Counted from the first letter of the stretch, positions 1 to 64,000 are shown. The stretch: DNA of 64,000 bases from Naegleria gruberi (GCA_000004985.1 GG738847.1), one strand, 5' to 3'. The notes: generated by a model from the letters alone, not told the origin. Program-made: numbers and translations.

Positions 1-2943
1 TTGATTGAGAACATCAAAGAGACCATTGATGCTGTCTTGTCACCAGTTATTGGCAGAAATATTATTCAAAGCGGTTCTTCGAAACTTATCAAACTGGGAA
101 ATAACGAAATAGACTATCACGAAAATTTTAAACTTATTCTCCATACAAAACTTAATAACCCTCACTACAATCCAGAAATTCAAGCAGAAACAACCCTCAT
201 CAACTTCTCTGTCACAGAAGAAGGCTTAGAGGAACAATTACTTGCCCTTGTTGTCCAAAAAGAAAGATCTGACCTCGAAGAGAAGAAATCAGAACTCAAC
301 ACCAAGAAGAATGAATTCAAGATTAAACTGAAAGAATTGGAAGATAACTTGCTAGAAAATCTTAAGTACAAAGGTGATTTGCTTGGAAATGTTGAACTAA
401 TTACAGGTTTAGAAAACACAAAGAAAACAAGTGAAGAAATCAAGATTCAAGTTTTAGAATCTATTGAAACAGAAAAGGATATCAATGCTGCAAGAGAAAA
501 TTACAGAAAAGTTGCTAAGAGAGGAGCTATTCTTTATTTCCTTTTGGACCAACTTCAACTTGTAGAACATATGTACAAATATTCTTTAGCAGCTTTCAAT
601 GTTGTTTTCAACAGAGCAATTACTAAAACAGAAAAAGTTGAAAATGAGGACCTATTTGTGAGAATTGGCAAACTCATTGACTCTATTACTTATGCTTGCT
701 ATGAATACACTGAACGTGGTTTGTTTGAAAGACACAAACTCATTTTCATGACCAACCTTTGCTTCACTATCCATAGAGACATATTTAAACCAGAGCATTT
801 GAATTTCCTCATTAATTGTCCAGCAGATCCAAACACTCCAAAGGAAAATCCATTTGCTGACTGGCTTTCTGAATCTTGTTTCAAGGCAATTTACAAATTA
901 AGTCAATTAGAAGGTTTTGAAAAGTTATATGACGATATCTACAACTCAGGTAAGCGTTGGAAGCAATGGTCAATGCTTGAAGCCCCTGAAAAAGAAGGTT
1001 TACCACAAGATTGGAAGAAGAAGACAAACTTTGAGAAGTTGTTAATTATTAGAGCTTTAAGACCAGACAGAATTACACAGGCATTGAAGGAATTTGTTGG
1101 TGAGATTATGGGTGATAAGTTTGTTCAGTCCATTCCATTCTCTCTTGATAAGATATTTGCCGAGTCGAGACCTAACACTCCTCTCTTCTTCATTCTCTTC
1201 CCTGGTGCTGATCCAATCAAGAATATTGAAGCTTTGGGTAAAAGACTTGGTTTCTCTGAAGAAAATGACAAGTTTGTAAACATTTCTATGGGTAAAGGTC
1301 AAGAAGAACATGCAGAAAAGACATTACGTAAATCCTATGAAATTGGTGGATGGGTGGTGTTGCAAAACATTCACTTGATGCAGAAATGGTTGCCAACTCT
1401 TGAACGTACTCTTGAAAAGCTTTCTGAAGGCTCTCACAAAGACTTTAGAGTGTTCCTAACAGCTGAACCAACTCTTAATCCAGTTATTCCACAAAGTATT
1501 CTTCAAAACTCTATTAAGATCACAAACGAACCACCTCAAGATCTCTCAGCAAATCTCCACAGAGCCCTTTCGAACTTTTCTCAAGAATTCTTTGAGTCCT
1601 CAATCAAGCAAAGCGAATTCAAGACTATATTATTTGCTCTCTGTTTCTTCCATGCAGTTGTATTGGGTAGAAGAAAGTTCGGCTCTCAAGGATGGAGTAG
1701 AAACTATAGTTTTAACAATGGAGATTTGACAATCAGTGCAGACGTCTTGTATAACTACTTGGAAACCAATGATGCCATTCCATGGGAAGATATCAGATAT
1801 ATCTTTGGTGAAATTATGTATGGTGGTCATATTACTGATCACTGGGATAGAAGAACATGTACAACCTATCTCAAATGTTTACTTAAAGAACAATTATTCG
1901 ATGAAACAGAGTTAGCCCCTGGATTTAATGCTCCACCTTCAATGAACACTCTTGATGAATACCATGAATTTATCAATGAAAAACTTCCAGCAGAATCCCC
2001 ATTGCTGTTTGGCCTGCATCCAAATGCTGAAATTGACTTTTTGACAAACCAATCTGAAAGTTTATTCAAAGCCATAATCAAGATTAGAGGTGAAAGTAGT
2101 AATACATTTGTTAGTGATCATGTTGAAGATACACTTGCTCTCCAAATCGATGAATTATACAATACCCTCCCTGAAAACTTTGATTTGGATGAAATCTCTG
2201 GAAAGGCTGATAAGAAGATACCATTCGTTGCTGTCTGTTTGCAAGAATGTGAAAGAATGAACATCTTACTCAGTGAGATTAAGAATTCATTGACAGAATT
2301 GAAGATGGGTCTGAATGGTGAATTGACAATGTCAGAGCAAATGGATAAGTTGAAAAAGAGCTTGTCTTATGACCAAGTTCCAGCTCGTTGGGAGAAGGTT
2401 GCATATCCATCTGTTAAACCATTATCCCTTTGGTTTGAAGATCTTATTAAGAGAGTGAGACAATTAGAAGAATGGAGTTCAGAGCTGACTCTCCCAAAGG
2501 TACTTTGGTTATCAGGTCTTTTCAATCCGATGGCTTTCTTGACAGCCATTATGCAAACATCTGCCCGTAAGAATGGTTTCCCTCTTGATAGAATGTGTAT
2601 TCAAACAGAAGTCTTGAAAAAGACCAGATCTGAAATTCAACCTGTACCTCCAAGAGATGGTTGTTATGTTGATGGTTTTATTTTAGAAGGTGCAGGATGG
2701 GATATCAAGAGCAATGTTCTCAAAGATAGTGACCTTAAAGTTCTTCATTCACCAATGCCAGTCATTCACATCAAAGCTGTTCCAATTGATAAGAGAGACA
2801 CAAAGAATATTTATGAATGCCCTGTCTATGTTACTCCTCAAAGAGGTCCAACCTATATCTTTACTGCCCAATTAAAGACCAAACACGATGTATCCAAATG
2901 GGTATTAGCAGGAGCTTGTTTACTCCTACAAACATACAAATAA
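1..2943 (+). CDS. Dynein heavy chain, C-terminal ~980 aa (5'-truncated by window edge). One uninterrupted ORF ending TAA at 2941-2943.
   Basis: ORF track 1..2943. The translation has a typical dynein heavy-chain distal AAA region and C-terminal domain (e.g. LFFILFPGADP, GGWVVLQNIHLM, dynein-type terminal sequence). No introns in the ~2.9 kb present. Confidence 0.85.
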   Translation: MIENIKETIDAVLSPVIGRNIIQSGSSKLIKLGNNEIDYHENFKLILHTKLNNPHYNPEIQAETTLINFSVTEEGLEEQLLALVVQKERSDLEEKKSELNTKKNEFKIKLKELEDNLLENLKYKGDLLGNVELITGLENTKKTSEEIKIQVLESIETEKDINAARENYRKVAKRGAILYFLLDQLQLVEHMYKYSLAAFNVVFNRAITKTEKVENEDLFVRIGKLIDSITYACYEYTERGLFERHKLIFMTNLCFTIHRDIFKPEHLNFLINCPADPNTPKENPFADWLSESCFKAIYKLSQLEGFEKLYDDIYNSGKRWKQWSMLEAPEKEGLPQDWKKKTNFEKLLIIRALRPDRITQALKEFVGEIMGDKFVQSIPFSLDKIFAESRPNTPLFFILFPGADPIKNIEALGKRLGFSEENDKFVNISMGKGQEEHAEKTLRKSYEIGGWVVLQNIHLMQKWLPTLERTLEKLSEGSHKDFRVFLTAEPTLNPVIPQSILQNSIKITNEPPQDLSANLHRALSNFSQEFFESSIKQSEFKTILFALCFFHAVVLGRRKFGSQGWSRNYSFNNGDLTISADVLYNYLETNDAIPWEDIRYIFGEIMYGGHITDHWDRRTCTTYLKCLLKEQLFDETELAPGFNAPPSMNTLDEYHEFINEKLPAESPLLFGLHPNAEIDFLTNQSESLFKAIIKIRGESSNTFVSDHVEDTLALQIDELYNTLPENFDLDEISGKADKKIPFVAVCLQECERMNILLSEIKNSLTELKMGLNGELTMSEQMDKLKKSLSYDQVPARWEKVAYPSVKPLSLWFEDLIKRVRQLEEWSSELTLPKVLWLSGLFNPMAFLTAIMQTSARKNGFPLDRMCIQTEVLKKTRSEIQPVPPRDGCYVDGFILEGAGWDIKSNVLKDSDLKVLHSPMPVIHIKAVPIDKRDTKNIYECPVYVTPQRGPTYIFTAQLKTKHDVSKWVLAGACLLLQTYK

Positions 2944-2995
2944 ATGAATAATGTTAATGAATAAAAAAGTTGTAAGATATCTTTTGAAATCTAAT

Positions 2996-14483: not shown

Positions 14484-15840
14484 TTAGAAGAAGAAACAAA
14501 CAATAGCAACAACAGCCATTAAAGCAAATGAAACAGTTGAAGTAACAGCAGAAGAGGTCTTGACATAAATGCTGTTAACAACAAATCCAGTTTCAGAAAG
14601 GAGAGACTTCCATGAGTTAGCATTAGCATCATAGAACTTTAAGAAGTTTTGGCCACCAACAGCTACTGATCCAGACTTGCAACCAGTAATTGTGTATTGA
14701 CTGAAAAGACCACAAATATCCATACCGAGAACAGTTTCTTTAGGATAGTTAGTACCAATGACAGCATAATCGCCAGTACCATCACGTCTCTTAACAGAGG
14801 ATTCACTGTTTGATACTTGACATTACCACCAGCAAAGATAGAACCAACATTTGAGGCAGACAATCCCTTAATGTATCTAATCTTGTTAACTGCACCAGTG
14901 GTAACTGAACCAGCATCAGCAGACCAAGCAGCAGACTTGTGATTATAGTTACAGACACCCTTACATTCAGTCTTAGCGAAAGAAGTAGCAGCAACGAAAA
15001 TGTTATCAGTGCTGAAAATATTTGGATTATAATAGATATCAGTAACACCAGTGGCTCCATCAACAAGAGTCCAAACACCAGGGGAATTAGTAGTGTCATA
15101 GATGGCAAGACCAAATTCCTTACCATTAGCATCGTAGAATTTACCACCATAATAAACCTTATTGTATGTGATTAATTGGTATTCATTTTTGGCAACAACT
15201 GTTACAGAAGTAGCATTCACAGCAGTTTGTGTTTCCCACTTCTTATTCTTGTTGTGATAATACAAGAAGTTTGTGGCAGTACTACCGGAGACAGAGGCCT
15301 TGAAATTACCACCAACAAAAATGTCACAAGGGAAAAGACCAGAGATAGACATTGAGTCAGGAAGGGATGTACAATCGGTATCAATAGCAGTAACAACAGA
15401 TCCAGCAACGAAATCTGATGAAGAAAGACCAGTATCAATCCAAGCAGCAGTGTAAATGTTCCAGATAGCAACTGGACCAGTCTTCTTAGTTCCGACTTGA
15501 GTGAAAGCACCACCAATATAAACGTTTCCGTATACATCAACATTGACAACCTTAACTTCACCATCAGTACCATTTTCCATGGCCTTCAAAGCAGATTCCT
15601 TCAAATCATAGTAAGCAATATTGTTGTATTTAGTACCGTTCAAGGTATTGAAAGAACCACCTGCGTACAATAATGATACAAAGATGATGATATTGAAAAA
15701 ATAAATAAATTTCATCACGTGTTATCTTTCTACATACCAAGATAAATTCTTGTGGTCAAAGGAGTTGCTGGAAGAGTAATGGCAGTAACCATGCAAGCGA
15801 AGAACAAAACGCAAGCAGCAGATAACAATGTCTTATACAT
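14484..15840 (-). CDS. Secreted, probably GPI-anchored Kelch-like beta-propeller surface protein with repeated GGxF motifs. The gene is frame-disrupted near 14663-14823.
   Basis: Likely 5' exon 15738-15840 (MYKTLLSAACVLFFACMVTAITLPATPLTTRIYLG) spliced by GTATGT…TACGCAG (77 nt) to the 351-aa ORF body starting ~15660. Repeated IGGAFT, VGGNFK, YGGKFY, AGGN motifs. The C-terminal part continues in another frame (ORF 14484..14723: …VAVGGQNFLKFYDANANSWKS… then hydrophobic tail SFALMAVVAIVCFFF, a GPI/TM signal). The ORF track shows two different reading frames overlapping at 14663-14723 with no GT-AG intron to join them. Confidence 0.5.
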
Positions 15841-16558
15841 CTTGTGTTTTTGTTTTTTTTTGATCTGAGTTGGGAGAGAGTTAGGCAGCCCACAATTTAA
15901 CGAGTGTATGAACAAGCACACCAATACAACCAACGTGAAGCTATCTGTTGGGCGGGAAAGAAATTACAAAATAAAGTTCAAAGTTGAGGAATTTGTTAGC
16001 CAATAACCATACAAAATCGACATATTCAACGTTCAACACCTCTTAAGGAATATTCAACACCTTGTGAGGCTGGAGAGAACTTTTAATCCCTTATTTCTCA
16101 GCTTGTTTTAAAAAATCTCTAATTCGTTGAAGGAGGAAGAGAAGAATGAACTTTTTCATCCTAATTGAATTGAAACAAGGTGATGTTTATGATACTGTGT
16201 TTAAATACATCATTTATTAAATATTCGGTGGTGAGATGTGGTGACTCAGTGCATGACTGACTGCTAGTTAGAAAGAGTCCCCTTTGCTTGTGTGTTGAAA
16301 TCGAAACAAAAGGAAGAATAAATTTTTTAGGGCAATCGTTTACCTGGCGCAAATTTCACTTCCTAAAATGTAGCTTGAGTAAGACATTAAATCATTACAA
16401 TATGTATATTATTAAACACAACTACGGTTCGGGTGGTGGTACTCGTGCAAGTTTTGTGGTGATTTTGGGACACAATAACTCCAACAAAAAAAAGAGGCAA
16501 AATTGTCAACTTGTTATTAAATTGCTGTGTTAACTTTATTGAAGAAAATATTCATGAT

Positions 16559-35894: not shown

Positions 35895-38800
35895 ATGTTA
35901 TCGGGATTTAAAACCTCAATAATTCATATCAACATTGTAACATTGTGTTTGTGTAGTATTACTCTTCTCTTCATATCAACTATATCGGGTGTGAGTTGTT
36001 CGTTATCAGAAGAGTTTGTTCCTGCACTAAAAAACCACAATTCAACTTCAATCCTTTATCAAAGCAAGTATGGCCACCTATCGGATAGATGCTACAATCA
36101 GTTCATCAAGAATTTCATATTCAATCAGACGATTCTTTCCTTTGATAGAAGGACTATGATACTTGGATGTTTCTCAGGAACTTTTGCAGAAATGAAATCA
36201 TGCCACGATAGAATGGAAACACAATTCAGAAAGAGTACTTTCAAAGAGTGCTCATATTCAGATCAGTGCTTACTATTTGGTGACAATCCTTCATTGGTTT
36301 TCAAAATGTATTCAGAACGGGCAAGAAGAAGTGGAAAAGATGAATACGCCACCTTACTTGGAACATTTCCTTCAAAATGCTCGCAAACCATTGTTGAATC
36401 ACTAATTGGAAGAGAGGCAATTATATTCTTCTTTAAACAATCAAATGTGAGCGTTGAACTCACAAAAGAGCTTGTAAGGGGGTTCTTTAAGGAAAACCTC
36501 CAAAATCAATGCGGAAATTACACTGAAAATGCTTTAGAAGCATTAAGAATATTTGTACAGGAGATGCCAAAAGGAATGTTCAATTTTCTTTCCTTTTTAG
36601 AGTTTCAAGAAAGGGTCGAAAAGGATACAGTTTCCTTTCGGTTATTGTTTGATTTATCGATACTCATATCTCTTATCATTAGCACTCTTGTCGTAATAAG
36701 CAGAAAATCTAACAATACCAATCCTGTCTCAAACTCCCAGCCACAATCACAGAAAATGTTCCAACTTGTGAAAAATATATTCTTAAAACTGGACAATCAT
36801 AATCAGAACATTTTGCAAGCAGAATCTTTGATTAAAGCTAGAATAGAAAAAAGTGAAAAGCTTAAATTAGCCATCAATGATCAAGAGAATAGAATATCTG
36901 AATTGACCAATAACTTCAATAGGATGCTAAATGGCTCAAAAGCAAAAGATAATACAATCGCTAAAACAATGGAATTACTGAATGAAATCAAAGATGCAAT
37001 TCAATCCGAAAAAGGTAGAGAACCATTAGATGTATTTAATATGCCCTATTATTTGAAGCAATTGTTTAAAGAGAAATCCGAATCTGAAACTGCTTGTAAG
37101 GAGAAGAATGTTAAGGTTCTCGCAGAGAAAAAACAGCTTGAAGCGTTGAACAAGGAACTAAAGGATAGAATTGAGTTTATTGTTTCAGACAATGAGGATT
37201 TAGGATTAAAAGTAGGTCTACTTGAAGAATCATTGGGCAATCAGAAGTCAATTACTCATTCATTGGAAGACTCTGTGCTAAGCCAGTCTGAACAAATAAG
37301 CAAACTTCTTCACTCTTTGAAGATGAAAGAGGATCAGGAACAAAAAGTGGGAACAGAATTGGAAATTTCAAGAAATGACGTGAAGTTATTGGAGAAACAT
37401 CTGAATCAAACCTACTCTTATTTTGGGATTTTAGAAGAGAAGAATCCTGAATCAATACGTTCATTTGTTGAAAGTCTGAGAAATGAATCAGAAATTAAAA
37501 CAAGAGAAATTGAGAAACTCCAGGAACAAATAGCTAACATTGAAGAGATCTCAGACGAAAAAATTGCCAAGATACTAGAAATCGAGTCAAGAGTTACATC
37601 CTTGCAAGATGAAAATAACTCCCTGAGGTCTCAATTGCATATCGCAACAAAGAAGATCGAGTCAAAATATGAGAAAGCTTCCGATAATCATGAAATTCTT
37701 CTAAAAGATCTAGAAACTGTTAAAAGAGACCTCGAGAAAACGAAATTGGAGCTTGCTTAAAAATCAGATTTGCACAATTCTCTCCAGCTGGAAATTCAAC
37801 AAGCAAAAGAACAACAGAGCAGATATCAACAAAAAATTGCAGAAATAACTGAAATATCCGAAAATCATTTAAAAAAGATAGAATCAATTACGGATCAAAA
37901 TGATTTTATGGCAAAAACCATCGAATTGTTAAAAGAAGAATCCAAAGTGGAAGCAATTGGAAACAAGTGTGAACAATTGGAAAAAGACAATGCCCAAACA
38001 CTTATTGATCTGGCAAAAACAAGGTCAGAACTTTCTGCATTTAAACTAAAATATGAAGAGAGATGTAAAGTTTTAAGCAATGAAAGATCAATCATGGAAG
38101 AAAAGGTTAGAGATATTTCCCAAAAATATGAGAAACTGTGTGCAACAGTTTTAGAACGAAAGAAAGTTTTTGAGGAAGCAAAATCAATCATTGAGGAAAA
38201 ATCAAAGAGGGTGGAAGAGCTTTCTGTTATTGTTGAAACATTAAACGAGAGTATGGAGCAGAAGAATTGTGAACTTGTTTTGAAAGAAAAGAATATTGAG
38301 GAGCTAGTAGATATTGTAAACCAAATCAAGTCATGTTTCTCATCTGCACAGATTGAAGGTGACAATTCAATTACTTCTATTGTTAAAGAAATGATGGAAA
38401 AGCAACGAGAAACTGTAAATTGTTTGGAAGTGGAGGTAGAAGGGTTGAGAGGAACTCTGAGTAGTAAATCACAGATATTTGTTGATTATCAATACAAGAT
38501 TGATGAAATAACAGAAATATTAGAAGTTAGGTCAAAGAGAATAGATGAGTTAGATATTGAACTACAATTTCTTAAGAAGGAAAAAAGTAATTTAGAAAAT
38601 GAAATTATTGAGCTAAAGAAATTAATGGAAGAAAAGGAGGTAAAGTTGAAGGAACTAGCAGTTAGTTTGAAAAAGCTCGCTTTAGAAAAGCTTAGCAGTG
38701 AAACTTGTCTGAATGATGAAATAGAGAGTCTTTCTAATGAAAACCTATTGATGAAAGAGAAAATAGATAAGATGAATGAAGCCCTGTCAAAGAAAGTTAA

Positions 38801-39080
38801 CAAAATTGATGATGCCTATAACTATATTGAAGTTCTCAACTCTGAAAGTGAGAACCTGTGTTCTTTGAATAAGGCAATGGAAGATAAATATCTGAAAGTT
38901 CTATTTGAAAAGAAACAATTCAATGAACAAAAGGACAAGTATGAAAGAATTATCGAAGCATTAAAATCACAAAACGAAAAATTACTTGATGAATTGAACA
39001 ATCAACAAATGATCCTACTCAAAATGGAAAAATCAAATAAGAATGCATTCGAAAAGGAATCCAAAAACCAAACAAAATAA
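35895..39080 (+). CDS. Membrane-anchored long coiled-coil protein (signal/TM - Cys-containing lumenal domain - TM - ~800 aa coiled coil). The reading frame is interrupted by an in-frame TAA at 37758-37760.
   Basis: ORFs 35895..37760 and 37770..39080 are in the same frame and separated only by TAA plus 3 sense codons (…TKLELA*KSDLHNSLQLEIQQAKEQ…). Heptad-rich K/E/L composition runs throughout both parts. No convincing intron spans the stop; the only GT upstream is a weak GTTAAA. Confidence 0.5.
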
Positions 39081-44522: not shown

Positions 44523-47505
44523 ATGAGCAGTGGTGGTGGACATGTTTCATTCTCTAACCAGCAGCAACCAGCAAATAATCAACATCAGCAACAATATCTT
44601 GCCAACTCCTTTTCGTCAACAATAACACCAAATAATAACAATAACTATGGCAATCAAGGAAATAGAACCATGTTCGGAAATGGATTGAGTGGTGCTGTAT
44701 CAACTTCATCACCAAATGCGTCCAAACCACTTCCTACTCTTCCTCTTTCCCAACAACAACAACAACACACAACAACACATTCCAAATAATAGAGCAAGCA
44801 TGTCCTTCTTCAATCCGCAACCTACCCCTCCTTTTAATCAACAATCAAATATTTTAGATAGTAGTGGTGGTTCTCAATTTCCTCCACCTCTTAAACAACA
44901 ATCATCCCTCAATAACTTAATGTATCAACAACCTGCAAATACTCAGCAACAACAATGGAATAATCAAAATTCTGAAATGTTTTATAGTAATTCTCTAAAT
45001 TCAATGATTAATAATAATTTGAATGATCAACAGTTTGTTCCAGTAACTGCCATGCCTAATTCATCAAATAATTTCAATAACAAAAATGTTCCGAGTGTAG
45101 CCCAAAGTTTTGATTTTTCAGTGGAGAAAAAGAGATCAAAGAGTGTCAGTTTTGGACGATCAAGTCCACTATTATCGGATGAAGAACCAATAGTCAACAC
45201 AAATGAAACACAAACAGCCAAGCCAATTCCTCAAGTAGTTGAACATACCAAAACTGTTTCATTCTTCGAGTCACCTATTTATTCCACTATGGCAGAGGAT
45301 GATATGAGAGACGATGCATTTCCTGCTATTACTTTTGATATTCCTGTACGTTCTGGAGAAACGAGAGATTTTTCAAATGTTTTTGAAAGATGGCAAAATA
45401 TGGGATTGGGAAGTAATGATATGCGTCATTCGTTTGTTGCCACAACATCGAGCCACAACTTTGGATTTGAGGATGATTTTGGTACATCCAACAAACCAAC
45501 TGAATCAATCCTTAACAAGGGTACTGCCAATACTACTGTAATATATCCAAATCCAAATGCACCAACACCATCAGAGCTACAAAGTGATACCAGATCAGAA
45601 TTGTACAATCCAAATGCCATACCAACTCCAATAAGTGCTAATGATGATCAAGATGATGAGGATGAGTCAGAGGAAAACCAACAGGAATCATTTGATATGA
45701 TACAATTAGGACTATTGGATCCAAAAGAGTTAAAAATTCTATGTGAAAATATTTCTTCCATGCTCAACATTCTGTACAAGTATCTGGGAACAATACCAAC
45801 TGAATGTTCACTGGTTTTACTTGAAAAACATTGTGAATCAAACCTTAAAGATTTGAGCAAAATAACAAACAAGCATTCTGTTGAGACCTTGATATCACTA
45901 CTCATTTCCAGGTTAGATCTTCACAAAAATAAGGGATCCCTTTCAAAGTTGACATCTGTAGATTTTCTTGAACAACAAGTTAGAGAAATTGCTAGGACAA
46001 GTTTAATCAATCTCAGAGAAGATATGGAAGGATTTCAGAGAAGCAAAAGATCATCAACACCAAACGATTCAAGTGATGAGGTTAGTGTTGCTTCTAATAA
46101 CGAGCCAGAACTTCCAAATATACCAAGAAAAATGGTGGAGAAGAAGAAATTAATAGACAAGTTACTGAAACAAATCAGCAGTATTAACACACCACTCAAT
46201 GATAATGGAGATACTATCGTACATGCATGTTGTTGGTATGGATTGAAATCTGTTCTGGAATATGCACACAAGGTTAAAGGAGCCCTTTTATCTATCAGAA
46301 ACAAGGATGGAAAACTTCCATTAGAATACGCCATCAATCAACACAGAATTTCATCTACAGTCTACTTGATTGGTAATTCTATTGGCCATTCACTCCATTT
46401 ATTTGCAGATGGAAGACTGAGAGAAACCTTTAACAGAGATTTAATTTTGGAAGGAAAGAAAAAGAACCTTACAAAAGCTCTTCGCCAATGCATTTCTTCA
46501 TCCTCAAGGGTTAAACCAAATGTAAAGGATGAGTATGGTATGACACCTCTTCATTACTCTGTTCTACTGAGGTATGATTCAACTATCAAAAAACTATTAC
46601 AAATGTCCAATATACGAGTGAATGAAAGAGATAAGCTCAAGAGAACATGTCTTCATCTTGCTGCTATTTCCAATAATACTGAGGTGATAGATATGCTTTG
46701 TAAACGTGTTGATATTGATAGATTGGCCAGAGATGATATCGGAGATTCATTCCTTCATACATACATTAGATATATCTATGCTGAAGAAAATGGACCAAAA
46801 TATGAAAATCCAATTTTAGTAATGAACAAAATTCAATCCCAATTCAAGTGGTTCAGAAGCCCTATTGTTGATTGTGGGTTAATTCTTGCTCATGCCGGTT
46901 GTTTAGAAAAACTCAATCATTATCACGACTTTGTGATTTCATGTTGGAATCAAATTGTAAAATATGGATTATCAGATAGTTATATTATTGTAGAAAACAG
47001 TTTATTGGAGGGAATTGTTGACCCAGAAGTTGTAAAAACAGCAATTATTACATCATTTAAACAATTCATCATTCCACCAAAGAGAAATGACAAACGTCCG
47101 CTCAGACTTCAACTTGTGAATGTTGTCCATCAACAAGAGAAACAAAAGAAAGGATTATTCAGCTTTGGAAGAGAAACCAAATCATTATTGGGAATGAAAA
47201 ATAAGGAACAACCACCTGTCAACACACAACCACCACAAAATACTCCTCCTCAAGTCACTCAACAAATTATTGATGTTATGAGCAAAAAGATTTATAATTT
47301 CTCCATGATTGACTTTAAGGATTTACAATATCTTTTCACAGACAATCAAACTCACCCACAAGATTCTTACATTTCATGGATGGTCAACAATCAAAAACAA
47401 ACTCCACTATCATTGGCAATAGTATTAATTAGAGCTCTTGTTAAGGAAAAGAAAGTTCAAGCCAAATCAATTGTTACATTACCAATCAGAGCTTTTAAAA
47501 TTTAA
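44523..47505 (+). CDS. Prion-like Gln/Asn-rich protein with C-terminal ankyrin repeats (~1000 aa). The N-terminal ORF (44523-44789) and the main ORF (44689-47505) are in different frames overlapping across a (CAA)n tract.
   Basis: The 88-aa ORF (…LPLSQQQQQHTTTHSK*) ends at AAA-TAA 44784-44789. The 938-aa ORF continues in the +1 frame (…NNRASMSFFNPQ…). Ankyrin repeats follow (…GDTIVHACCWYGLKSVLEYA…, …GMTPLHYSVLLRYDSTIKKLL…, …RTCLHLAAISNNTEVIDML…). No GT-AG intron in the overlap. Alternatively the gene starts at the ATG at ~44800 and the upstream ORF is a uORF. Confidence 0.5.
44750..44768. repeat. (CAA)n trinucleotide repeat inside the Q/N-rich coding region.
   Basis: caacaacaacaacaacaac at the frame-transition point of the ankyrin gene. 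Confidence 0.6.
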
Positions 47506-49615: not shown

Positions 49616-52600
49616 CTAAAGGAGTAAGAAATTACAAATCATCACAACCATGACGAATACTGATGCAACAATCTTACCAGAACCATTAACATCAGTACTA
49701 TGTATTGGAACAGTACCATTGTTATTATTGTTATTGTTATTATTATTGTTATTGTTTGTAGGAGAACCTGAGCTAGTAGCAACAATCACTTGTTTTGATT
49801 CGTCCACAACAACCAAATCTGTTGTAGCAGCAACAGATGAAGTTGAGAACAATGAAGCAGTTGGTGTGAAAGTAAATGAAGTCTTAACCACTGCTGCACT
49901 ATCTTTCTTCACCAAATTAATTTGGAGCAATTGATCAATGGTTGAAACAGTACATGCACTAACAGTGTACAATGTCGTCAAATCAGTTGACCCACTCTTA
50001 ATCATATCAAAGATCTTACTTGGATTTGCATTAATATCAGCAATTCCCTTCACATCAAATGGATGGTCAGGATTACTATTGTAAACCATAAATTCGGTAT
50101 TTCCAGCTGTTGCTTGATTAATCCAAACCATGTCGACAGTTGTTGGTTTCAAATCTTCCAAAGTCAATTTCAAAGCACATTTTGAAAGTAAATTGAATTG
50201 AACTAAGGTACCAGTTGTCTTGGAGAAGGCAATTGGCAATCTCTTAACTGTTGAAGTATAGGAATAACTTGAAGTGGCAATTGAGTTGACATCAGTAATT
50301 GATGGAGTTGCCTTTACAGTATTGGAATTGACAGACATGTCATAGACACATGTGGCATCGGTACTTTCAGCAATGAGAACAAGACCAATTTTGTTGGCAG
50401 TTTTGGCATTGTTCAAGTCAGCTGCCAAATCCAAATAAAAGTTTCCATTGATGGCTGGATCCATTGTAATGGAAGTTGCGTCAATTTCTCTTCTTGCAAT
50501 GGTCAAAGTTCTAGGAAATACTTGCTTCCAAAAAGATGGAAACTGAACTTGTCTTCTTGTTGGTGACCTTAATTTGAATAAACCTTTCGGCTGTTCCAGT
50601 ACAAACATTCGAAATGTCAATACTAAACAGTGCAACCTCACCTACCTTTTCAGCAACCAAATTATTGATTGATTTGGTATCTCTACTCATTTCTTTAGAA
50701 TCAACAACAATATTAGAATCATAACTCATTACAACACCTGTTGCACTATTCACAATTCTCAAATATAAAGTCTTGGCATTGATATCTGTCATCCTGACAG
50801 CTGAACACTTCATACCATAATAGCTAAAATCAGAATTTGGACCAATAACCTTAGTTTCAGATGGAACACCACTATTAAGAATATCATTGTAAACAAATTG
50901 AAGATTAATTTGATTGGTTGACATCATTGACACATCACCCTTATTCAAATATTCATCAGCAATTGGAAAAATTGTTTCACCAACTCCATAATTAACCATG
51001 AATGAACTACCATCATTGAGAATATTGGTATAGAAATCATTTGCAAATTTGAGTTTACCAGCACCTTCCAAAGAAGTCATTGACAAATATGGATAAGTAT
51101 ATCTATTCAAATTAATGATTAATCTTCCAGAACGGAATGGATTTACAATCTTGGAATTGAAATCCATGATATTGTAAGGAGCCATACCAATTTGCTTAAT
51201 TGTGAAACTTTCATCAAGTGGAATGACAGTTGCCAATAAAATCTTATCAGTATTTCCAATATTCATATTTTCCAAAGTCAAGTGGAAAGTATATTCAGTT
51301 TCCTTATCAATATAATTGAACTTGGCACCATTTGACATCTTGTACATGTTTCCAGATGTCCATGCTTCTGACAAGGTCAAACTAAATTTACCCCAAGCTT
51401 GCATTGAGAAGGCATAACGTGGATAATTAGCAGCAGTATCCAAAATCTTCATAAAGATAATTGGGTTTCCAACCTTTTAGTAAGTATATGAGAACCAACC
51501 ACCATAAGTTGTTGTGCTTAATTCAAAATCAGTTGTCACTATTTTTTGATCTGTGAGAATTGACATGAAAACAACATCACTTTCACGTGGGGCATCATAT
51601 CTGAGAATAAAATCGACTTCACCTTCAATGATATTTTCCTTAGTTGGATCAGGAGTTGAAGTAAAGATGAAAATTGGAGTTTGAGCTGTTTTGTAAACAA
51701 CCTTAATAAAAGTGCCATCCTCCATGACTGTTCCATCATTGACAGTTTGAGTGACATCATAATCACCTTGAGTAATAAGAACGTCATTTTGAGCAGTATT
51801 GGTATTCAACATATTCTTATAAACTTCAAATTTAAAATATTTCTTTGTAGTTCCTCCATTTGGAATACTAATTGTGGCCAAAGTGACTCCTTGGACAGAT
51901 TTAGAAACAGTGAAAGGTAATAGCATCTCCTTTGGCAGCTACATAACCATACTTGACATAGTAAAAGTTATTATTGGCATTCTTAATATTAAATTCATAG
52001 AATGCTGGAGTTGACTTGAACTCTGGTTGAACAACGACTGGAACTGGAACAGGATCTGAGGCTGGATCTGCTTTACCAACATAGTTATTGGCTCCTGGAA
52101 CTAAGTTACCATTACTATCTGTAGTAGATTCAGCATACTTTGGTTTTGGTGGACTCATGGTCTTGAATTTACCACTCATTGAGGCAATTTCAGTTTTACC
52201 AACTAATTCTAATTCCTTACTACCACCAAATTTCTCAGATTCATAATAGAAAATTAAATTGTAATAGGCGCTCAATTTACAATAAGCTGAAACTGAATCA
52301 CCTTCAATCAATCCTTCGCCAATCAATTCAATTCTGAAACGAGGAGCAATACCAACATAAACAGAGGCCAATTCCTTAACACCCAAAATCTTAACATTGA
52401 CTTCAACACCTGGAATCAATCCAAAGTAAACATTGGTCACAGCATTTACTTCAATCTTTGGTGGATCAGATGAGAAAGTAATTCCATCTCCTTCCTTTAC
52501 AGTACTATAAGTTCCATCATTGTACTCATAACCCAATGTCTTTTGGATGAGTAATTCAAAGTTTCTACGATAGGAAATTGTACCAGTGGCTTCGATTTTA

Positions 52601-53849
52601 CCTTTGAATTTAAGACTTGGAAGTACGGAGACAGTTAATACTGGAACAGCACTAATCATGATTGGAATGGTAACAGCTGGAGCTTTGAGTAAGAGTTTTT
52701 CAATATCCTTTTCGTATTTTGCTGTGACTGCCAGTCTGACATAACCAGATGTCTTCCAACTACCACCAACTGTTGCACGCAAGGTCTTTAAAGTGATCAA
52801 TTTGATATTGACCTTCAATGAGAATTCCATAAAGATTCTAGAGATACAATCTTCACAGGCAACTTCAAGAGATTCAGCCTTATAAATTGGAATGTTATTA
52901 TTAATTGGTGTTCCAGAACTATCACAATTAATATTTAACATTGGAGTGGTGTAACTTGCGGATCCTTCATAAGTTGGATCTGGAAGAGCAGCCTTGACAG
53001 TTTGATAGGCATTGTTGACAGCACCACCAACAGCAGCACCTGCCTTCTTGACTGAATTCCAAGCATCACTCAATCCCCAGAGAACTTTTCTAGAGATTGG
53101 TGTAACTCCTCTTGAGTTAACTCCAATTTCTGCCTCCATGAACAATTCAGCAGGAGACATGGAACGAGTTTGGAAACGAACTCTCATCATATTTCCTTCA
53201 TGAGCTATGATTTCACGCGTGAGGACAACATTGGTTGTGGCAGGATTCTCAGCACGATCTTCTTGACCTCTGAAACAATTCCACTTTTCACTAATGATGA
53301 ATCTTGTACCAGGAATGAAACGAGAGGCAGTACGCGCGTGATCTGAAAAGTCAATGGTGATGGAGTCATCAGTTGGATCACACTTGACGTCCCATACATT
53401 GAGTTCTCTATCAAGATTAACAATACCAGAGAGAGCTGTACCTTCAACTGAATAAATCTTCATGGTGTTACCTTCTACTCGACCAACATTATGTCTAATT
53501 GGAGCATAGTCGACATTTCTCTTCAATTTATTGATACTTCTCTTGTTGGTTCTCAATTCAATTTCAGAAGCACCCAAAGTATAGGTATTTCTCAAGTGGA
53601 ATGGATCTCTTCTCAAAGCTTGAAACAATTCCTCACCGGAAATGAAAGGACTGATGGTAGCGGAAGTTGTGGAAAGTCGATACCTTCAAAATTCATCTCA
53701 AGGAAGGATGAGGAGTGAAGGGATCTTTTGGCTTGTCCCTTCAATCCAAACATTCTCTTGGAGGGAAAGACAGTCATCTTGGATGTTGGTGTGTTTGCCA
53801 TGGCTAACACACTCATCACCACCAACAAGACGAAACTTGTGAATAGCAC
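49616..53849 (-). CDS. Giant secreted, GPI-anchored surface (adhesin-like) protein of ~1400 aa, assembled from 5 ORF segments. The gene is disrupted: two unresolved frame changes and one in-frame TAA.
   Basis: Segments on the minus strand are a signal-peptide ORF 53613-53849 (…FVLLVVMSVLAMANTP…), 51901-53628 (575 aa), 51477-51926 (149 aa), 50511-51452 (313 aa) and 49616-50641 (341 aa). The last ends in N13 (PTNNNNNNNNNNNNNGT) and a hydrophobic GPI-type tail IVASVFVMVVMICNFLLL. A clean 55-nt GTAGGT…GGAACAG intron (50591-50645) joins the 313- and 341-aa parts in phase (…NLVAEK|PKGLFKLRSP…). The 149- and 313-aa parts are in the same frame, separated only by TAA 51477-51479. The signal->575 and 575->149 transitions change frame with no usable intron. 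A further upstream ATG micro-exon (~53940) is possible. Confidence 0.5.
49728..49757. repeat. (AAC/AAT)n microsatellite (minus-strand sense) encoding the poly-Asn13 stalk.
   Basis: gttattattgttattgttattattattgtt on the plus strand. Confidence 0.6.
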
Positions 53850-54425
53850 GAGTTTAAGTGATTTTAATTAGCCAATTTCATTACCCTTATTAGGACTTTT
53901 TGTGATTGCGAAACAAGAGTTCGTTTCACAAATTTGAATATTTTCAGTTCCTACCTTACTTTAAACAAACTTTGAACATTCAAGTGGATGAACTATTTCA
54001 ATGCATGCGTGATTGATTCAACTATATTTCTGTAGGACTTTAAACAGCACTACAACATTCCAAGCGAAAAAAGTGACTTCGCTATTATCGTAGAAATAAA
54101 GTTTGTTTGTGAGCATTCTCTGAGTGGGAGATTCATCTAATAGTAAATAACAGTAAAACCATGCCTTAATTGAAATTGCCTTATTTCTTTTCCTCTTTTC
54201 TTCTTCTTCCCCGATATAGTGGAACTTACACTCAATTTGTAAAGAAAGAAAGTCGACTTATCATTGAAACAATGCAGTGGACCTTCTCAAGTTTATGACA
54301 AAAAACATAATAAGCAACTCGAACAAATATCTGAGTAAAGACTTTACTAAACATTGATAATATTCTTCTTCCGTAGTGAAGGTGAATTTTAAATTGCCTT
54401 CTTCTTCATTCGGAATAAAATCACA

Positions 54426-55758: not shown

Positions 55759-55830
55759 CACTGTTCTTTCTAATTTGAGTGAAGATTCTTACCATGTATA
55801 TTGTTGATTATTGTAACTATATGTTTATTG

Positions 55831-56604: not shown

Positions 56605-57460
56605 CTATGAATTAGCAAATAAATCAATTAGATTGTGGAATGGCTTTACAATTTTAAATGAAGAGAATACACCAAGAAGAACTCCCATCACAACAATAAC
56701 AATAGATGATGCCAGAGCTGCAATGATAGCAATAATCATGGTTCCTAGATAGTTCCATTGAGGAACTGAAAATACAAATAACCTGTCAAGAAGCAGTGTC
56801 ATTGGGAAAATAAGGAATCATCATACTTACCAATTTACATTAGCAGAATTACATAACCTGTACATTAAAAAATCTGTCCCCGAAAGATAAAAACTTGAAT
56901 GAATCGCAGCTAAGTGAGTCCAACTTGCTTTGATACCTCGTATATATAAAGTTACCAACAGTTTCTACTTCTAAAACACCAAAATTTGTTGCCTTCTTAC
57001 GCTCTTGATTTCCCTTATCATCCCACTTGGCTACAGGAACTTCAGGATAACTAGAGGCCACGATAAACTCAGTTTCAATTTCAATGACAAAGGCAAGTGA
57101 ACCAGTTATTTAACTTGTGATTTCCTTCAGATAGCTACTAATTGTAGCCACAGAAATATCAAAACCAAAATACCAATCAAAGTTGAATCCTGTGGCCGTT
57201 TGATTTCTAGATGGTCTTGAATTGACCAAACTCATAAAGGTAATGGAAGGAAGTGTTGGGTCAGTGTAGGAGAGCGTAAAAGTTGGTTTGTTCACTTGGT
57301 CCGATGCCACTCCTAGAATGTAACTCATATCAAATGGTGGTAACTGTACATCTGGTTCCCTAGATTGTGTATGACAATATTCATACAATGTCATATTATC
57401 ACAATAGGTCCAAAACTGACCTGTTGAATTCACAAACAATATGCTTGGAATTCTCACCAT
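56605..57460 (-). CDS. Predicted single-pass membrane protein assembled from 3 ORF segments (57110-57460, 56849-57061, 56605-56802). It is interrupted by an in-frame TAA at 57110-57112 and has an unresolved 3' junction.
   Basis: The 116-aa and 70-aa ORFs are in the same frame with 16 open codons between (…KEITS*ITGSLAFVIEIETEFIVASSYPEV…). The last segment encodes a TM helix GTMIIAIIAALASSIVIVVMGVLLGVF plus a short tail. GTGAGA and GTAAGT candidate donors are nearby, but no phase-consistent splice model is found. Confidence 0.35.
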
Positions 57461-58170
57461 TCATCATCTTTCCCTTATTTCCTTCGTATGGATCTCCAAC
57501 ATACGAATCTATCATTAAAGTGGAGAGGAATTGGTATTAAGATTTGAAAATCTTGTAGGTGATCAGGTTAATCCAATCAGTGTTCGCATAATCCAAGTCC
57601 CACTAAAAGTTTACATCCTTTTAAATCATACTTGGGTTTTCGGGAGATTTTACCAACATTCAATATAAAATAAAAAATAAATACAGACACTTAGATTTGA
57701 GAATCCAAATTATATATTTTATCTTGAGATAATCTCTTATTTGTTATTCCAAGAGATGATCCTCGCCAAAAACTACACATTAATATTGCGAGTCCCAAAG
57801 CATGACATTTGACAGTTGCTGAGGGATGTGTTTGACTTGTATACGTGAACATCATTCTATATTACCTTATAATATCGTTGGTTCATGTATTGCTCTCTTT
57901 ATCACTAAATAAAAAGTTGAATGATGTATAGACAACTTTCGTGTAAAAACTTGTTCTCCAGACATGCTCATCTCCTAAATGAAAAGATAAAAATCTTTGA
58001 ACAAAGTGCGCCAGGTTTCGAGATGAAAAAGTTGTCAATATTTCATTATTCTGTTATCTCTAATGATGGCAGGTTTTGGGATAACAATTTCAAGGATTAG
58101 GAAATTGAGTGTGTTTGCATAGAATCACAATACATCAACAAGCAAAGTTCTTTTAGTTGCAGCAAACATT

Positions 58171-62729: not shown

Positions 62730-62802
62730 TTTTTATTGTAAAAAATTACATAAGTTAAATTAAAATCAAAAAGGAAATATTTTGAGTTTAAAGAGGTTAA
62801 GG

Positions 62803-62806: not shown

Positions 62807-62809
62807 GGT

Positions 62810-62883: not shown

Positions 62884-62995
62884 TTGCATTAACTGTTAAA
62901 CGCGTGTTTATTTTAATTTTTGTTGGTACCAATAAACAGCTTAGAGTCAACCAAAATATGAATAAGAGTTCATTACTTGATCAACCAAAAAAAAA

Positions 62996-64000
62996 ATGCC
63001 ACAAACAATTTATTATAGAGGCAACACGCAACTCATGGAGATCATGACGAAGGCTCTATCCTCCGAAGATAAACAAATCATAGAGAAATCACCAAACAAA
63101 TCTTCAAAAAAGAAGAGAAAACTTGAAAAGACAATCAAGACAAATGTTCCTTTTCGTTCCGATCAATTCTACAAAATTCCATTATGTATTCAGGGAAGTT
63201 TTTCCAAGAAATTGGGAATTTTAAATACGGAATTGCAATTGATGAGATCGTGTAAGGATAGCATTATTTTCTTATTGTGGAATGATGATATTTATTTTCC
63301 AAGTCAGACGTTGGTAATTGTTGGATCATTGGCAAGATCAATTCAATCGAAAACAAAGGATCCGATGAGTAGAGATGGGTTTTGTGTTTTGGAGTTAACA
63401 GAAGAGGGATTATTGGACGGATTTGTAATTAATATTGAAATGGGAGACGGATTTTTACTGATTCAAACTCGTGAGCATTCATTATATGGATTGGGAGATA
63501 ATACTGTCTGTCAGCTGGGAATAGTTTCAAAAAATCAGAATTTCTATCATGAAATTACTGATATACCCTTTGAACATGGACAATTGGATTTTATCAAATG
63601 TGGACTAACATATAGTATTGCATTTACTAAATCTAAAGAAATTTATATTACTGGAGAGTATGAATATGTTGGTCGCCACTCTCCTTGGACTCCGTTTTTA
63701 GAATTTGCTAATATTGGAGACAAATCTTGTACAATTACCGATTGCCAACCAGGGCATCTCTCAATGTATTGTCTAGTCAAACCAATAAGTGATGTTTATG
63801 TTCATAATTCATATGTCTTTGATTGGTATTTGGGATCCATTAGAAGATCTGGTTATTTTCAAAAGCTGAAAGACATGCTCCAACAAGGATTAACAATTCA
63901 ACGAATAGAATCATGTAGTGAATCATTTGTATTGCAATTTGATGACAATGAATGGTACTGGGCGCATTTCTATTTGACAGTACACGGCTCTTATCGAGAA
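62996..64000 (+). CDS. RCC1-like repeat protein, N-terminal 335 aa (3'-truncated by the window edge).
   Basis: Open from ATG 62996 to the window end. RCC1-type blade motifs such as HSLYGLGDNTVCQLGI and …ITGEYEYVGRHSPW…. It is not in the ORF track because no stop is reached. Confidence 0.45.
   Translation, partial: MPQTIYYRGNTQLMEIMTKALSSEDKQIIEKSPNKSSKKKRKLEKTIKTNVPFRSDQFYKIPLCIQGSFSKKLGILNTELQLMRSCKDSIIFLLWNDDIYFPSQTLVIVGSLARSIQSKTKDPMSRDGFCVLELTEEGLLDGFVINIEMGDGFLLIQTREHSLYGLGDNTVCQLGIVSKNQNFYHEITDIPFEHGQLDFIKCGLTYSIAFTKSKEIYITGEYEYVGRHSPWTPFLEFANIGDKSCTITDCQPGHLSMYCLVKPISDVYVHNSYVFDWYLGSIRRSGYFQKLKDMLQQGLTIQRIESCSESFVLQFDDNEWYWAHFYLTVHGSYRE

What the first reader, a model, noticed from the sequence alone, without database searches (positions are those of the whole stretch)
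1..64000. Pattern: coding disruptions are confined to surface, coiled-coil and low-complexity genes while ~15 kb of housekeeping CDS is intact
There are three in-frame TAA codons, all followed by A, at 37758, 51477 and 57110. There are at least five frame changes, around 14663-14823, 32181-32221, 44689-44789, 51901-51926 and 53613-53628. Dynein, RPC1, aconitase, the DNMT1-like gene, TAF6, PPase and the HEAT protein are all clean, and RPC1 alone is 4.3 kb. Random consensus errors would not be this selective. Candidate explanations are relaxed selection or pseudogenisation of fast-evolving surface genes, strain-variable contingency loci, homopolymer or microsatellite-biased assembly errors, or an unrecognised recoding mechanism. 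Three frame changes coincide with a stop codon in the upstream frame (AAA-TAA-T, CAA-TAG-T, TTC-TAA-A), which is expected by chance once an indel occurs upstream.
Basis: inference. Interest (0 to 1): 0.55.

Follow-up and report, generated by a model that had tools for sequence, protein, structure and literature searches.

The report
Decaying non-essential genes in Naegleria gruberi
The stop codons and frame breaks are real, but they look like ordinary gene decay in dispensable, amoeba-specific genes, one of which is a demonstrably dead surface-protein gene, and not like a new decoding mechanism.

Summary
The window is Naegleria gruberi nuclear DNA; RPC1 and seven other ORFs match the NEG-M proteome exactly. 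All eight flagged disruptions are present, and I found three more. None fits an intron. Confident introns here are 38-77 nt, 19-29% GC, GT[AG][AGT]GT...AG.

Three flagged sites (TAA 51477, shifts 51901-51926 and 53613-53628) lie in one ~1,410-codon surface-protein gene (49616-53869, minus strand). An independent metagenome contig, 98.5-99.8% identical, reads straight through all three. Relative to it the window lacks 1 nt, 2 nt, and 120 nt; the 120-nt deletion junction creates the TAA. It also lacks 266 nt that include the ATG. Paralogues retain the missing 40 residues and reveal a fifth frameshift. Substitutions run 11 nonsynonymous to 2 synonymous, against 6:8 in neighbouring genes. This gene is a pseudogene.

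A second gene (56608-57540) carries the TAA at 57110 and also a further frame break. The other four sites are single lesions I could not check independently: real mutations, draft-assembly errors, or (G2, G3, G4) gene boundaries as currently annotated.

Nothing supports recoding. Selectivity is what purifying selection predicts. Low interest.

The parts
49616..53869 (-). G5: pseudogene of a Heterolobosea-specific ~1,450-aa secreted surface-protein family. It has an N-terminal signal peptide and a C-terminal hydrophobic tail, about 1,410 codons broken into five reading-frame pieces.
   Evidence: Stop-free segments are. Family members are N. gruberi NAEGRDRAFT_79262 and _75303, N. lovaniensis C9374_006138, Willaertia ABK040_014697 and a Percolomonas protein. 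tblastn collinearity across all pieces is. There is no Pfam domain.
53868..53870 (-). G5 lesion 0: a 266-nt segment is absent relative to contig L002. That segment holds the ATG (MFNQ...), so the signal-peptide exon has no in-frame ATG upstream.
   Evidence: Alignment of the window against L002. The ORF listing finds only a GTG start.
53660..53662 (-). A 1-nt deletion: CTTCC-GCTACC here versus CTTCCAGCTACC in L002. It is not in a homopolymer.
   Evidence: The L002 ORF of 365 aa is continuous across it. The conserved family motif LP..HPF.S.EEL spans the site.
51917..51919 (-). A 2-nt deletion: ATTACACC in L002 becomes ATTACC here. It lies 14 nt upstream of the TTC-TAA-A stop.
   Evidence: The L002 ORF of 763 codons is continuous across it.
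51474..51479 (-). This is the junction of a 120-nt deletion: 126 nt (42 codons) in L002 are replaced by TAAAAG.
   Evidence: All four aligned family members have sequence at the missing ~40 residues, so the deletion is derived in the window lineage.
50497..50517 (-). A frameshift with no intron.
   Evidence: tblastn of N. lovaniensis and N. gruberi paralogues runs in frame -3 down to 50517/50493 and in frame -1 from 50497/50470. That contradicts the otherwise good-looking 55-nt GTAGGT intron candidate at 50645..50591. L002 ends at 50657 and does not cover the site.
56608..57540 (-). G6: a small membrane-protein gene (about 200-aa ectodomain plus a TM exon). It has an in-frame TAA at 57112-57110 and a second frame break within 56964-56852. 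The most economical repair is one T fewer in the T6 run at 56867-56872. A canonical intron lies at 56830..56783.
   Evidence: No in-frame intron can remove the TAA. Coding potential is +0.07 and +0.28 bits/codon in the two pieces. No Pfam hit. No independent sequence was obtained.
35895..39080 (+). G3: a signal/TM region plus a long coiled-coil ORF interrupted by TAA at 37758-37760. The reference annotation calls the distal part a separate 390-aa gene starting at ATG 37908.
   Evidence: EFC49524.1 matches 37908-39077 exactly. The 49 codons between the TAA and that ATG are stop-free. They are purine-rich like the flanking coiled coil (purine fraction 0.61 against 0.44-0.52 in three of four true spacers) and weakly coding (+0.09). 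No in-frame intron fits.
14487..15963 (-). G1: a Rax2-like beta-propeller surface protein with a GPI-like tail. It has a 5' intron at 15737..15661 and one frame break located at about 14822-14790.
   Evidence: Pfam Rax2 E=1.7e-10. Strong coding potential on both sides, +0.81 and +0.64 bits/codon, with the switch right at 14822. The only short frame-restoring GT..AG candidates have non-consensus donors (GTCAAG 32 nt, GTATCA 29 nt). The 5' intron is.
31953..35748 (+). G2: an ARM-like protein with an S/K-rich N-terminus. The frame change is confined to 32185-32201. The annotated protein starts at ATG 32386.
   Evidence: EFC49522.1 equals 32386-35745. The 61 codons upstream of that ATG are strongly coding-like (+0.48 bits/codon) but contain no ATG. 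The 83-codon upstream ORF scores only +0.07, no better than 39% of antisense ORFs. The GTAAGC donor at 32181 restores the frame only with 112-196-nt introns, the shortest of which would remove coding-like sequence. No credible first exon was found.
44523..47505 (+). G4: an ankyrin-repeat protein with a Q/N-rich N-terminus. The frame change lies in 44689-44787, most likely within (CAA)5CAC(ACA)3 at 44750-44787. The upstream ORF ends AAA-TAA-T. The annotated protein starts at ATG 44800.
   Evidence: EFC49526.1 equals 44800-47502. The upstream 88-codon ORF has an ATG and is coding-like (+0.23 bits/codon; only 8% of antisense ORFs reach that). No candidate intron has a donor matching more than 3 of 6 consensus positions.

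Best explanation
The window is a gene-dense stretch of the Naegleria gruberi nuclear genome. The disruptions are loss-of-function lesions in the DNA itself: small deletions, one 120-nt deletion, point nonsense changes and loss of a start codon. They sit in genes, or in N-terminal low-complexity extensions, that the amoeba can do without. Purifying selection removes such lesions from RPC1, aconitase, dynein, the DNMT1-like gene and the other conserved genes. It tolerates them in lineage-specific surface, coiled-coil and low-complexity genes, and that produces the apparent selectivity.

Shown: the surface-protein gene G5 (49616-53869, minus strand), which holds three of the eight flagged sites, is a dead copy with at least five lesions.

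Inferred: G6 (two lesions) is also decaying. G1, G2, G3 and G4 each carry one real lesion that truncates or splits the protein. For G2 and G4 the lesion leaves a product that could still be made from a downstream ATG. No special decoding is involved. Ribosomes simply stop at these stops and read the shifted frames as written.
For: Organism:
- RPC1 is 100% identical to the N. gruberi protein.
- Seven of ten guessed ORFs equal NEG-M RefSeq proteins exactly.

G5:
- Paralogues and orthologues of 1,298-1,472 aa are collinear with all five pieces.
- ENA metagenome contig L002 is 98.5-99.8% identical. It has open frames across J1, J2 and J3.
- L002 shows the window to lack 1 nt, 2 nt, 120 nt, and 266 nt that include the ATG.
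- Family members retain the 40 residues deleted in the window.
- The N. lovaniensis paralogue is one uninterrupted 3,897-nt exon.
- Window-versus-L002 substitutions are 11 nonsynonymous to 2 synonymous in G5, against 6:8 in two neighbouring genes from the same metagenome strain. G5 has six indels; 2,007 nt of control coding sequence has none (Fisher P=0.046 for N:S).

Not introns:
- Confident introns in the window are 38-77 nt, 19-29% GC, with GT[AG][AGT]GT donors.
- No such intron restores any flagged junction or removes any TAA.

Other:
- Lesions cluster by gene: 5 in G5 and 2 in G6.
- Both sides of the G1, G2 (proximal part), G3 and G4 breaks score as coding in their own frames.
Against: - Independent sequence was obtained only for G5. 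For G1, G2, G3, G4 and G6 I cannot separate a real mutation from a consensus error in a draft assembly, or from one disrupted allele of a heterozygous polyploid strain.
- Six of about 30 genes disrupted is a high fraction for a free-living organism.
- G1 has very strong codon bias on both sides of its single break. That fits a working gene plus a sequence error about as well as a very recent pseudogene.
- For G3 the distance from the TAA to the annotated ATG (147 nt) equals the typical intergenic spacer here, so two genuine genes is a live alternative.
- For G2 the upstream ORF is not distinguishable from a chance ORF.
- L002 carries its own 20-nt frameshifting deletion, and its provenance is unknown.
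- The N:S contrast rests on small counts (P=0.046, or 0.10 if clustered changes count as single events).
Confidence: 0.6

Rival explanations
1. The single-lesion cases are consensus errors, or one allele of a heterozygous site, in the draft reference assembly. These cases are G1 at ~14800, G2 at 32185-32201, G4 at 44750-44787, the G3 TAA, and the G6 TAA and T6 run. Under this reading the genes are intact in the organism.
For: - G1 has strong codon bias on both sides of one break.
- The G6 second break can be repaired by one T in a T6 run.
- The G4 break lies in CAA/AC repeats.
- Exact look-ups of six ORF pieces from G1, G2, G4 and G6 found nothing in the collection, so no independent assembly confirms them.
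Against: - Errors should be spread over all ~50 kb of coding sequence, yet RPC1, aconitase, HEAT, dynein and seven exactly matching RefSeq proteins are clean.
- Where an independent contig exists, the differences are real strain differences. They include 120- and 266-nt indels and a nonsynonymous excess, not error-like noise.
- The G5 1-nt deletion is not in a homopolymer.
Confidence: 0.2
2. G2, G3 and G4 are not disrupted at all. The reference gene models are right. G3 is two adjacent genes, with stop at 37758 and next ATG at 37908. G2 and G4 start at ATG 32386 and ATG 44800. The upstream open frames are untranslated leader, uORFs or chance ORFs.
For: - Exact matches to EFC49524, EFC49522 and EFC49526.
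- The 147-nt G3 gap equals typical spacers of 146-166 nt.
- The G2 upstream ORF has coding potential no better than 39% of antisense ORFs.
Against: - The 61 codons before the G2 ATG score +0.48 bits/codon, as high as bona fide exons.
- The G4 upstream ORF scores +0.23 (top 8% of the null) and has the same Q/N/S/P composition as the annotated N-terminus.
- The G3 gap is stop-free for 49 codons (about 2% by chance) and has the purine bias of the coiled coil, unlike three of four true spacers.
- These models would imply unusually long non-coding leaders, about 660 and 1,070 nt from the neighbouring gene, against about 150-260 nt elsewhere in the window.
Confidence: 0.25
3. The breaks are decoded. 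This would mean +1 ribosomal frameshifting at a 0-frame stop (AAA-UAA-U in G4, CAA-UAG-U in G2) and readthrough of UAA-A in G3 and G6, giving full-length proteins.
For: - Both the G2 and G4 shifts are +1, and the downstream frame is open at the 0-frame stop.
- AAA-UAA is the motif used for +1 frameshifting in Euplotes (my own knowledge).
- Coding-like sequence continues after every stop.
Against: - The one comparable site that could be tested (TTC-TAA-A at 51904) is explained by a 2-nt deletion 14 nt upstream, absent in a near-identical strain.
- The one TAA that could be tested is a deletion junction, not a conserved codon.
- The organism uses the standard code with ordinary stops in all clean genes.
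- UAA followed by a purine is the strongest terminator context in eukaryotes (established knowledge).
- No suppressor tRNA lies in the window.
- An overlap window as short as the one in G2 arises by chance about 9% of the time under a random-indel model (my calculation).
Confidence: 0.03
4. The frame changes are unrecognised spliceosomal introns with unusual splice sites, for example a 32-nt GTCAAG...TTAAG intron in G1 or a 112-nt GTAAGC...TTAAG intron in G2.
For: - The genome has many tiny introns.
- Frame-restoring GT..AG pairs exist at every junction.
Against: - All confident introns here have G at +5 and T at +6, are 19-29% GC and at least 38 nt long. The candidates fail on donor, on composition (34-40% GC), or both.
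- The G2 candidate would excise sequence scoring +0.44 bits/codon.
- The best-looking candidate of all (G5 50645..50591, AAG|GTAGGT) is refuted by paralogue alignment.
- G5 J1 and J2 are shown to be deletions.
- The N. lovaniensis paralogue has no introns.
Confidence: 0.05

Closest known systems
Unitary or duplicated pseudogenes in lineage-specific surface-protein families of protists (gene decay under relaxed selection)
   Same: G5 is homologous to intact ~1,450-aa family members. It carries several independent ORF-breaking lesions and has lost its start codon. The lesions are absent from a near-identical strain, and nonsynonymous changes are in excess.
   Different: The family itself has no Pfam domain and no described function. 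Expression status is unknown. The comparison strain carries a different frameshifting deletion, so the locus may be decaying in more than one lineage.
Euplotes-type +1 programmed ribosomal frameshifting at AAA-UAA/UAG
   Same: The G4 upstream frame ends AAA-TAA-T and the downstream frame is +1. G2 and G5 J2 are also +1 at a 0-frame stop.
   Different: Only one of the sites has the AAA motif. The site that could be tested is a plain 2-nt deletion. N. gruberi uses the standard code, and UAA is a normal, frequent terminator in this window. No recurrence or conservation was shown.
Reference gene models NAEGRDRAFT_62294, _45700 and _45703 (JGI/NCBI annotation of N. gruberi NEG-M)
   Same: They are identical in sequence to the distal parts of G2, G3 and G4.
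   Different: The models begin at the first ATG downstream of each disruption. They omit coding-like sequence upstream: 61 codons in G2, 49 plus 621 in G3, and about 88 plus 12 in G4.

Membership tests
Pseudogene (non-functional copy of a protein-coding gene family), applied to G5 | Clear homology to intact protein-coding family members over the whole length | tested here: met
   phmmer E-values run from 4e-50 to 4e-32 against 1,298-1,472-aa proteins of N. gruberi, N. lovaniensis and Willaertia. tblastn is collinear over all pieces.
Pseudogene (non-functional copy of a protein-coding gene family), applied to G5 | ORF-disrupting lesions that cannot be removed by splicing | tested here: met
   There are five lesions. 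No consensus intron fits. The N. lovaniensis paralogue is intronless.
Pseudogene (non-functional copy of a protein-coding gene family), applied to G5 | Lesions are derived: the ancestral or sister sequence is intact at those positions | tested here: met
   L002 is open across J1, J2 and J3 and has the ATG. Family members keep the 40 deleted residues. J4 is not covered by L002.
Pseudogene (non-functional copy of a protein-coding gene family), applied to G5 | Relaxed selective constraint (dN/dS near 1; indels tolerated) | tested here: inconclusive
   N:S is 11:2 against 6:8 in control genes, P=0.046 (0.10 counting events). Indels are 6 against 0, P=0.09. The direction is right but the counts are small.
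Pseudogene (non-functional copy of a protein-coding gene family), applied to G5 | No full-length protein product | not testable with these tools
   Needs RNA-seq, Ribo-seq or proteomics.
N. gruberi spliceosomal intron | GT..AG with a GT[AG][AGT]GT donor, 38-77 nt, AT-rich (19-29% GC), as in the confident introns of this window | tested here: not met
   Reference set. Candidates at the flagged junctions have donors such as GTCAAG, GTATCA, GTATTT, GTAAGC and GTTCGG. None spans a TAA in frame.
Programmed +1 ribosomal frameshift | Shift site with a slippery codon followed by a 0-frame stop | tested here: inconclusive
   AAA-TAA-T is present in G4. CAA-TAG-T in G2 and TTC-TAA-A in G5 are not known slippery motifs.
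Programmed +1 ribosomal frameshift | The shift is conserved in close relatives, i.e. required for expression | tested here: not met
   At the only testable site (G5 J2), L002 has two extra bases and a continuous frame. G2 and G4 were not testable.
Stop-codon readthrough or reassignment | The in-frame stop is conserved at the orthologous position | tested here: not met
   At 51477 the relative has sense codons plus 40 more codons. G3 and G6 were not testable.
Stop-codon readthrough or reassignment | A cognate suppressor tRNA or a leaky stop context | tested here: not met
   The only tRNA in the window is tRNA-Val(AAC). That covers this window only; the rest of the genome was not available. The context is UAA-A, a strong terminator by established knowledge.
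Phase-variable contingency locus | The frameshift lies inside a long, mutable simple-sequence tract | tested here: not met
   G5 lesions are in unique sequence or ACAC. G1 and G2 have no repeat. Only G4 has a short (CAA)5/(ACA)3 tract, and G6 a T6 run.

The most novel reading that the evidence does not exclude
The most novel reading not excluded is that the G4 AAA-UAA-U site (and perhaps the G2 CAA-UAG-U site) is a genuine +1 ribosomal frameshift site, and that the UAA-A in the G3 coiled-coil gene is read through. N. gruberi, a standard-code heterolobosean, would then use stop-dependent recoding to make long isoforms of low-complexity proteins.

A milder novel reading is that the axenically adapted NEG-M laboratory strain has specifically lost surface and membrane genes needed only in the wild.
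Probability: 0.04. Interest if true: 0.6.

Novelty: new member of a known kind. Interest (0 to 1): 0.15.

Why it matters
The value is mainly practical. It shows that the N. gruberi NEG-M region contains at least one unrecognised multi-lesion pseudogene of an uncharacterised, Heterolobosea-wide family of ~1,450-aa surface proteins. It also shows that several reference gene models start at a downstream ATG and so step around a disruption. Anyone counting gene families, surface antigens or 'orphan' genes in Naegleria should expect such decayed copies. It removes a possible false lead about recoding in this organism. No open biological question turns on it.

Tried and rejected
1. Exact-protein look-ups of window ORFs in the contig collection failed for N. 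gruberi itself. That assembly is not held there.

2. Two long chimeric queries to the search for homologous proteins returned nothing useful. They missed even the self-matches later proven to be in the database. Those negatives are therefore meaningless, and the searches were wasted.

3. Synteny with N. lovaniensis around RPC1 (L001) and around the G5 paralogue (L005) does not extend to the disrupted genes.

4. Exact look-ups of ten short ORFs and neighbours found only the PPase exon. Its contig, and the contig of the P4Hc gene (L004, L003), do not reach any junction. They served as controls instead.

5. Two last guesses also failed: the G1 signal-peptide exon and the G4 upstream neighbour.

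6. Two scans of JGI metagenomes found nothing: a protein-pattern scan over six junctions and a DNA pattern across the G3 TAA.

7. Brute-force enumeration of GT..AG pairs gives dozens of frame-restoring candidates per junction and is uninformative without a splice-site model.

8. The 55-nt AAG|GTAGGT...ACAG candidate in G5 looked convincing and was rejected only by paralogue alignment.

9. I first misread the DNMT1-like intron donor as the non-consensus GTTTCA. The scan showed it is GTGAGT.

10. My impression that ORF 55801-56430 is a nucleotide-cyclase domain got no Pfam support.

11. Literature searches gave no data on NEG-M pseudogenes or on project PRJEB11402.

Full report
**Identity of the window.** The 4,281-nt ORF at 20599-24879 is 100% identical to the RPC1 protein of Naegleria gruberi. 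It is 89% identical to N. lovaniensis and 80% to Willaertia magna. Exact-sequence look-ups show that seven further ORFs equal NEG-M RefSeq proteins on a 941,567-bp scaffold. The region is 29-39% GC (mostly 31-37%) and gene-dense. It contains many very short spliceosomal introns. In TAF6, the DNMT1-like gene, a PPase gene and others, the confident introns are 38-77 nt and 19-29% GC. They start GT[AG][AGT]GT and end (C/T/A)AG.

**Checking the observation.** All eight flagged sites are present.
- In-frame TAA codons, each followed by A, lie at 37758-60 (+), 51479-77 (-) and 57112-10 (-). Coding-like ORF continues in the same frame after each one.
- The five frame changes are real. Stop-to-stop mapping narrows them to 14822-14666, 32185-32201, 44689-44787, 51938-51904 and 53685-53616.
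- The sites belong to six genes, which I call G1 (14487-15963, -), G2 (31953-35748, +), G3 (35895-39080, +), G4 (44523-47505, +), G5 (49616-53869, -) and G6 (56608-57540, -).
- The 'clean' genes are indeed undisrupted. Those that change frame do so only at canonical introns.

**Are the breaks introns?** No.
- I listed every GT/GC..AG pair that restores each junction and every in-frame intron that could excise a TAA.
- None combines a consensus donor, the right length and AT-richness.
- The G2 candidate (GTAAGC, 112 nt) would remove sequence that scores +0.44 bits/codon as coding.
- The only candidate with a perfect donor is G5 50645..50591. It is contradicted by paralogue alignments, which run straight through it.

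**G5 is solved.**
- A full HMMER search with the largest piece found a family of 1,298-1,472-aa proteins. Members occur in N. gruberi (NAEGRDRAFT_79262 and _75303), N. lovaniensis, Willaertia and Percolomonas. The search also found a 365-aa protein that is 100% identical to the query.
- That protein comes from a 4-kb ENA metagenome contig (ERZ929261, L002). L002 aligns to window 54289-50657 at 98.5-99.8% identity.
- L002 has an ATG, and its reading frames run across all three flagged sites.
- Relative to L002 the window lacks four things:
  - 266 nt that include the ATG;
- All four aligned family members have sequence where those 40 residues are missing, so the deletion is derived in the window lineage.
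- Paralogue tblastn shows a fifth lesion, a frameshift at about 50517-50497.
- The N. lovaniensis paralogue is one uninterrupted exon.
- Between the window and L002, G5 shows 11 nonsynonymous and 2 synonymous substitutions and six indels. Two neighbouring genes from the same metagenome strain (L003) show 6:8 and no indels in 2,007 nt (Fisher P=0.046).
- L002 has its own 20-nt frameshifting deletion at window 52850.
- G5 is therefore a pseudogene. Three of the eight flagged anomalies are ordinary deletions.

**G6.** The TAA at 57110 lies between two coding-like pieces. About 240 nt downstream the frame breaks again, just before a canonical GTAAGT...GACAG intron that leads to a transmembrane exon. 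One T fewer in the T6 run at 56867-72 would repair it. Two lesions in about 0.9 kb suggest a second decaying gene, but I have no independent sequence for it.

**G1.** This is a Rax2-like propeller surface protein. It has a signal-peptide exon, a canonical 77-nt intron and a GPI-like tail. It has one break at about 14822-14790, and coding potential is very strong on both sides (+0.81 and +0.64 bits/codon). No consensus intron fits. A 1-nt deletion near 14800 would give ...IFAGGNVKYQTVNPSVKRRDGTGDY... (inference). Whether this is a recent real mutation or a consensus error cannot be decided here.

**G2, G3 and G4.** The reference annotation sidesteps each disruption. EFC49522 starts at ATG 32386, EFC49524 at ATG 37908 and EFC49526 at ATG 44800.
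- G2: the 61 codons before the annotated ATG are strongly coding-like yet contain no ATG (+0.48 bits/codon). The further-upstream 83-codon ORF is not distinguishable from chance, and no credible first exon exists.
- G4: the 88-codon upstream ORF has an ATG, is coding-like (+0.23) and has the same Q/N/S/P-rich composition as the annotated N-terminus. The switch falls in (CAA)5CAC(ACA)3.
- G3: the 49 codons between the TAA and the annotated ATG are stop-free. They share the purine bias of the coiled coil rather than that of true spacers. However, the 147-nt distance also equals a normal spacer.
- I therefore rate 'one ancestral ORF with a single lesion' as more likely than 'annotation is right'. 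The margin is not large.

**Recoding.**
- The +1 geometry and the AAA-TAA-T motif in G4 recall Euplotes frameshifting.
- The single +1-at-stop site that could be tested (G5 J2) is a 2-nt deletion. The single TAA that could be tested is a deletion junction.
- UAA is the ordinary terminator of clean genes here, and UAA-purine is a strong stop context.
- The only tRNA in the window is tRNA-Val.
- Coiled-coil codons are only about 1.3 times more prone to nonsense mutation than housekeeping codons, so mutational bias contributes little.

**Why the pattern looks selective.**
- Lesions cluster by gene: 5 in G5 and 2 in G6 (P about 0.015 after correction). That is the signature of decay after a first inactivating hit.
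- Lesions are absent from genes under strong constraint.
It recognised introns as such only in genes it could name.
- The pattern is real but ordinary.

**Limits.** Independent evidence exists for G5 only. The origin of the metagenome strain is unknown. No reads, transcripts or orthologues were available for G1-G4 and G6.

Noticed in passing
window 39860-39908 (- strand): The stop codon of the annotated 451-aa P4Hc/F-box protein (EFC49721) is the TAA inside a consensus GTAAGT donor. A 49-nt GTAAGT...AATAG intron (27% GC) would join this ORF in frame to the following 216-aa ORF (39181-39831). The two are probably one gene with an unannotated intron.
   Followed up: partly
window 31367-31458 (- strand): The HEAT-repeat ORF (28156-31314) has no ATG at its start. 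A 92-nt GTAAGT...GATAG candidate intron upstream suggests a short 5' exon, which would shrink the HEAT-G2 intergenic region.
   Followed up: no
L002 (ENA ERZ929261 k127_52016), L003, L004: A public metagenome assembly (run ERR1078381, project PRJEB11402) contains contigs 98.5-99.8% identical to this N. gruberi region. This is a second, near-identical strain that could be mined to check the whole reference. No paper mentioning the project was found.
   Followed up: partly
L002 positions ~1705 (window 52831-52850): The metagenome strain has its own 20-nt frameshifting deletion in G5 at a different place from the window's lesions. The locus may be inactivated independently in both lineages, or this may be an assembly artefact in the metagenome contig.
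   Followed up: no
window 58171-60288 (- strand): The 705-aa AAA-ATPase-like protein has at least two paralogues at >=90% identity on the same 941-kb scaffold (EFC49512, EFC49683) and a partial copy on a 7.6-kb scaffold. This is a recently amplified gene, possibly linked to a mobile element.
   Followed up: no
window 55801-56430 (+ strand): A 209-codon ORF without an ATG start sits 40 nt from the start of the divergently oriented RGS-domain ORF (54955-55761). To my eye it resembles a degenerate class III cyclase domain, but it has no Pfam hit at E<0.01. It may be another gene relic.
   Followed up: partly
window 15661-15963 (- strand): G1 has an upstream exon encoding a signal peptide (MYKTLLSAACVLFFACMVTAITLPATP...), joined by a canonical 77-nt GTATGT...CGCAG intron. 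The 'MKFIYFF...' start suggested by ORF listing lies inside that intron.
   Followed up: partly
window 53869 versus L002 422-687: The 266-nt segment present only in L002 carries the G5 start codon and upstream sequence. I did not determine whether the window deleted it or whether it has repeat or mobile-element character.
   Followed up: no
window 62810-62883 (- strand): tRNA-Val (anticodon AAC) is the only tRNA gene in the window.
   Followed up: no
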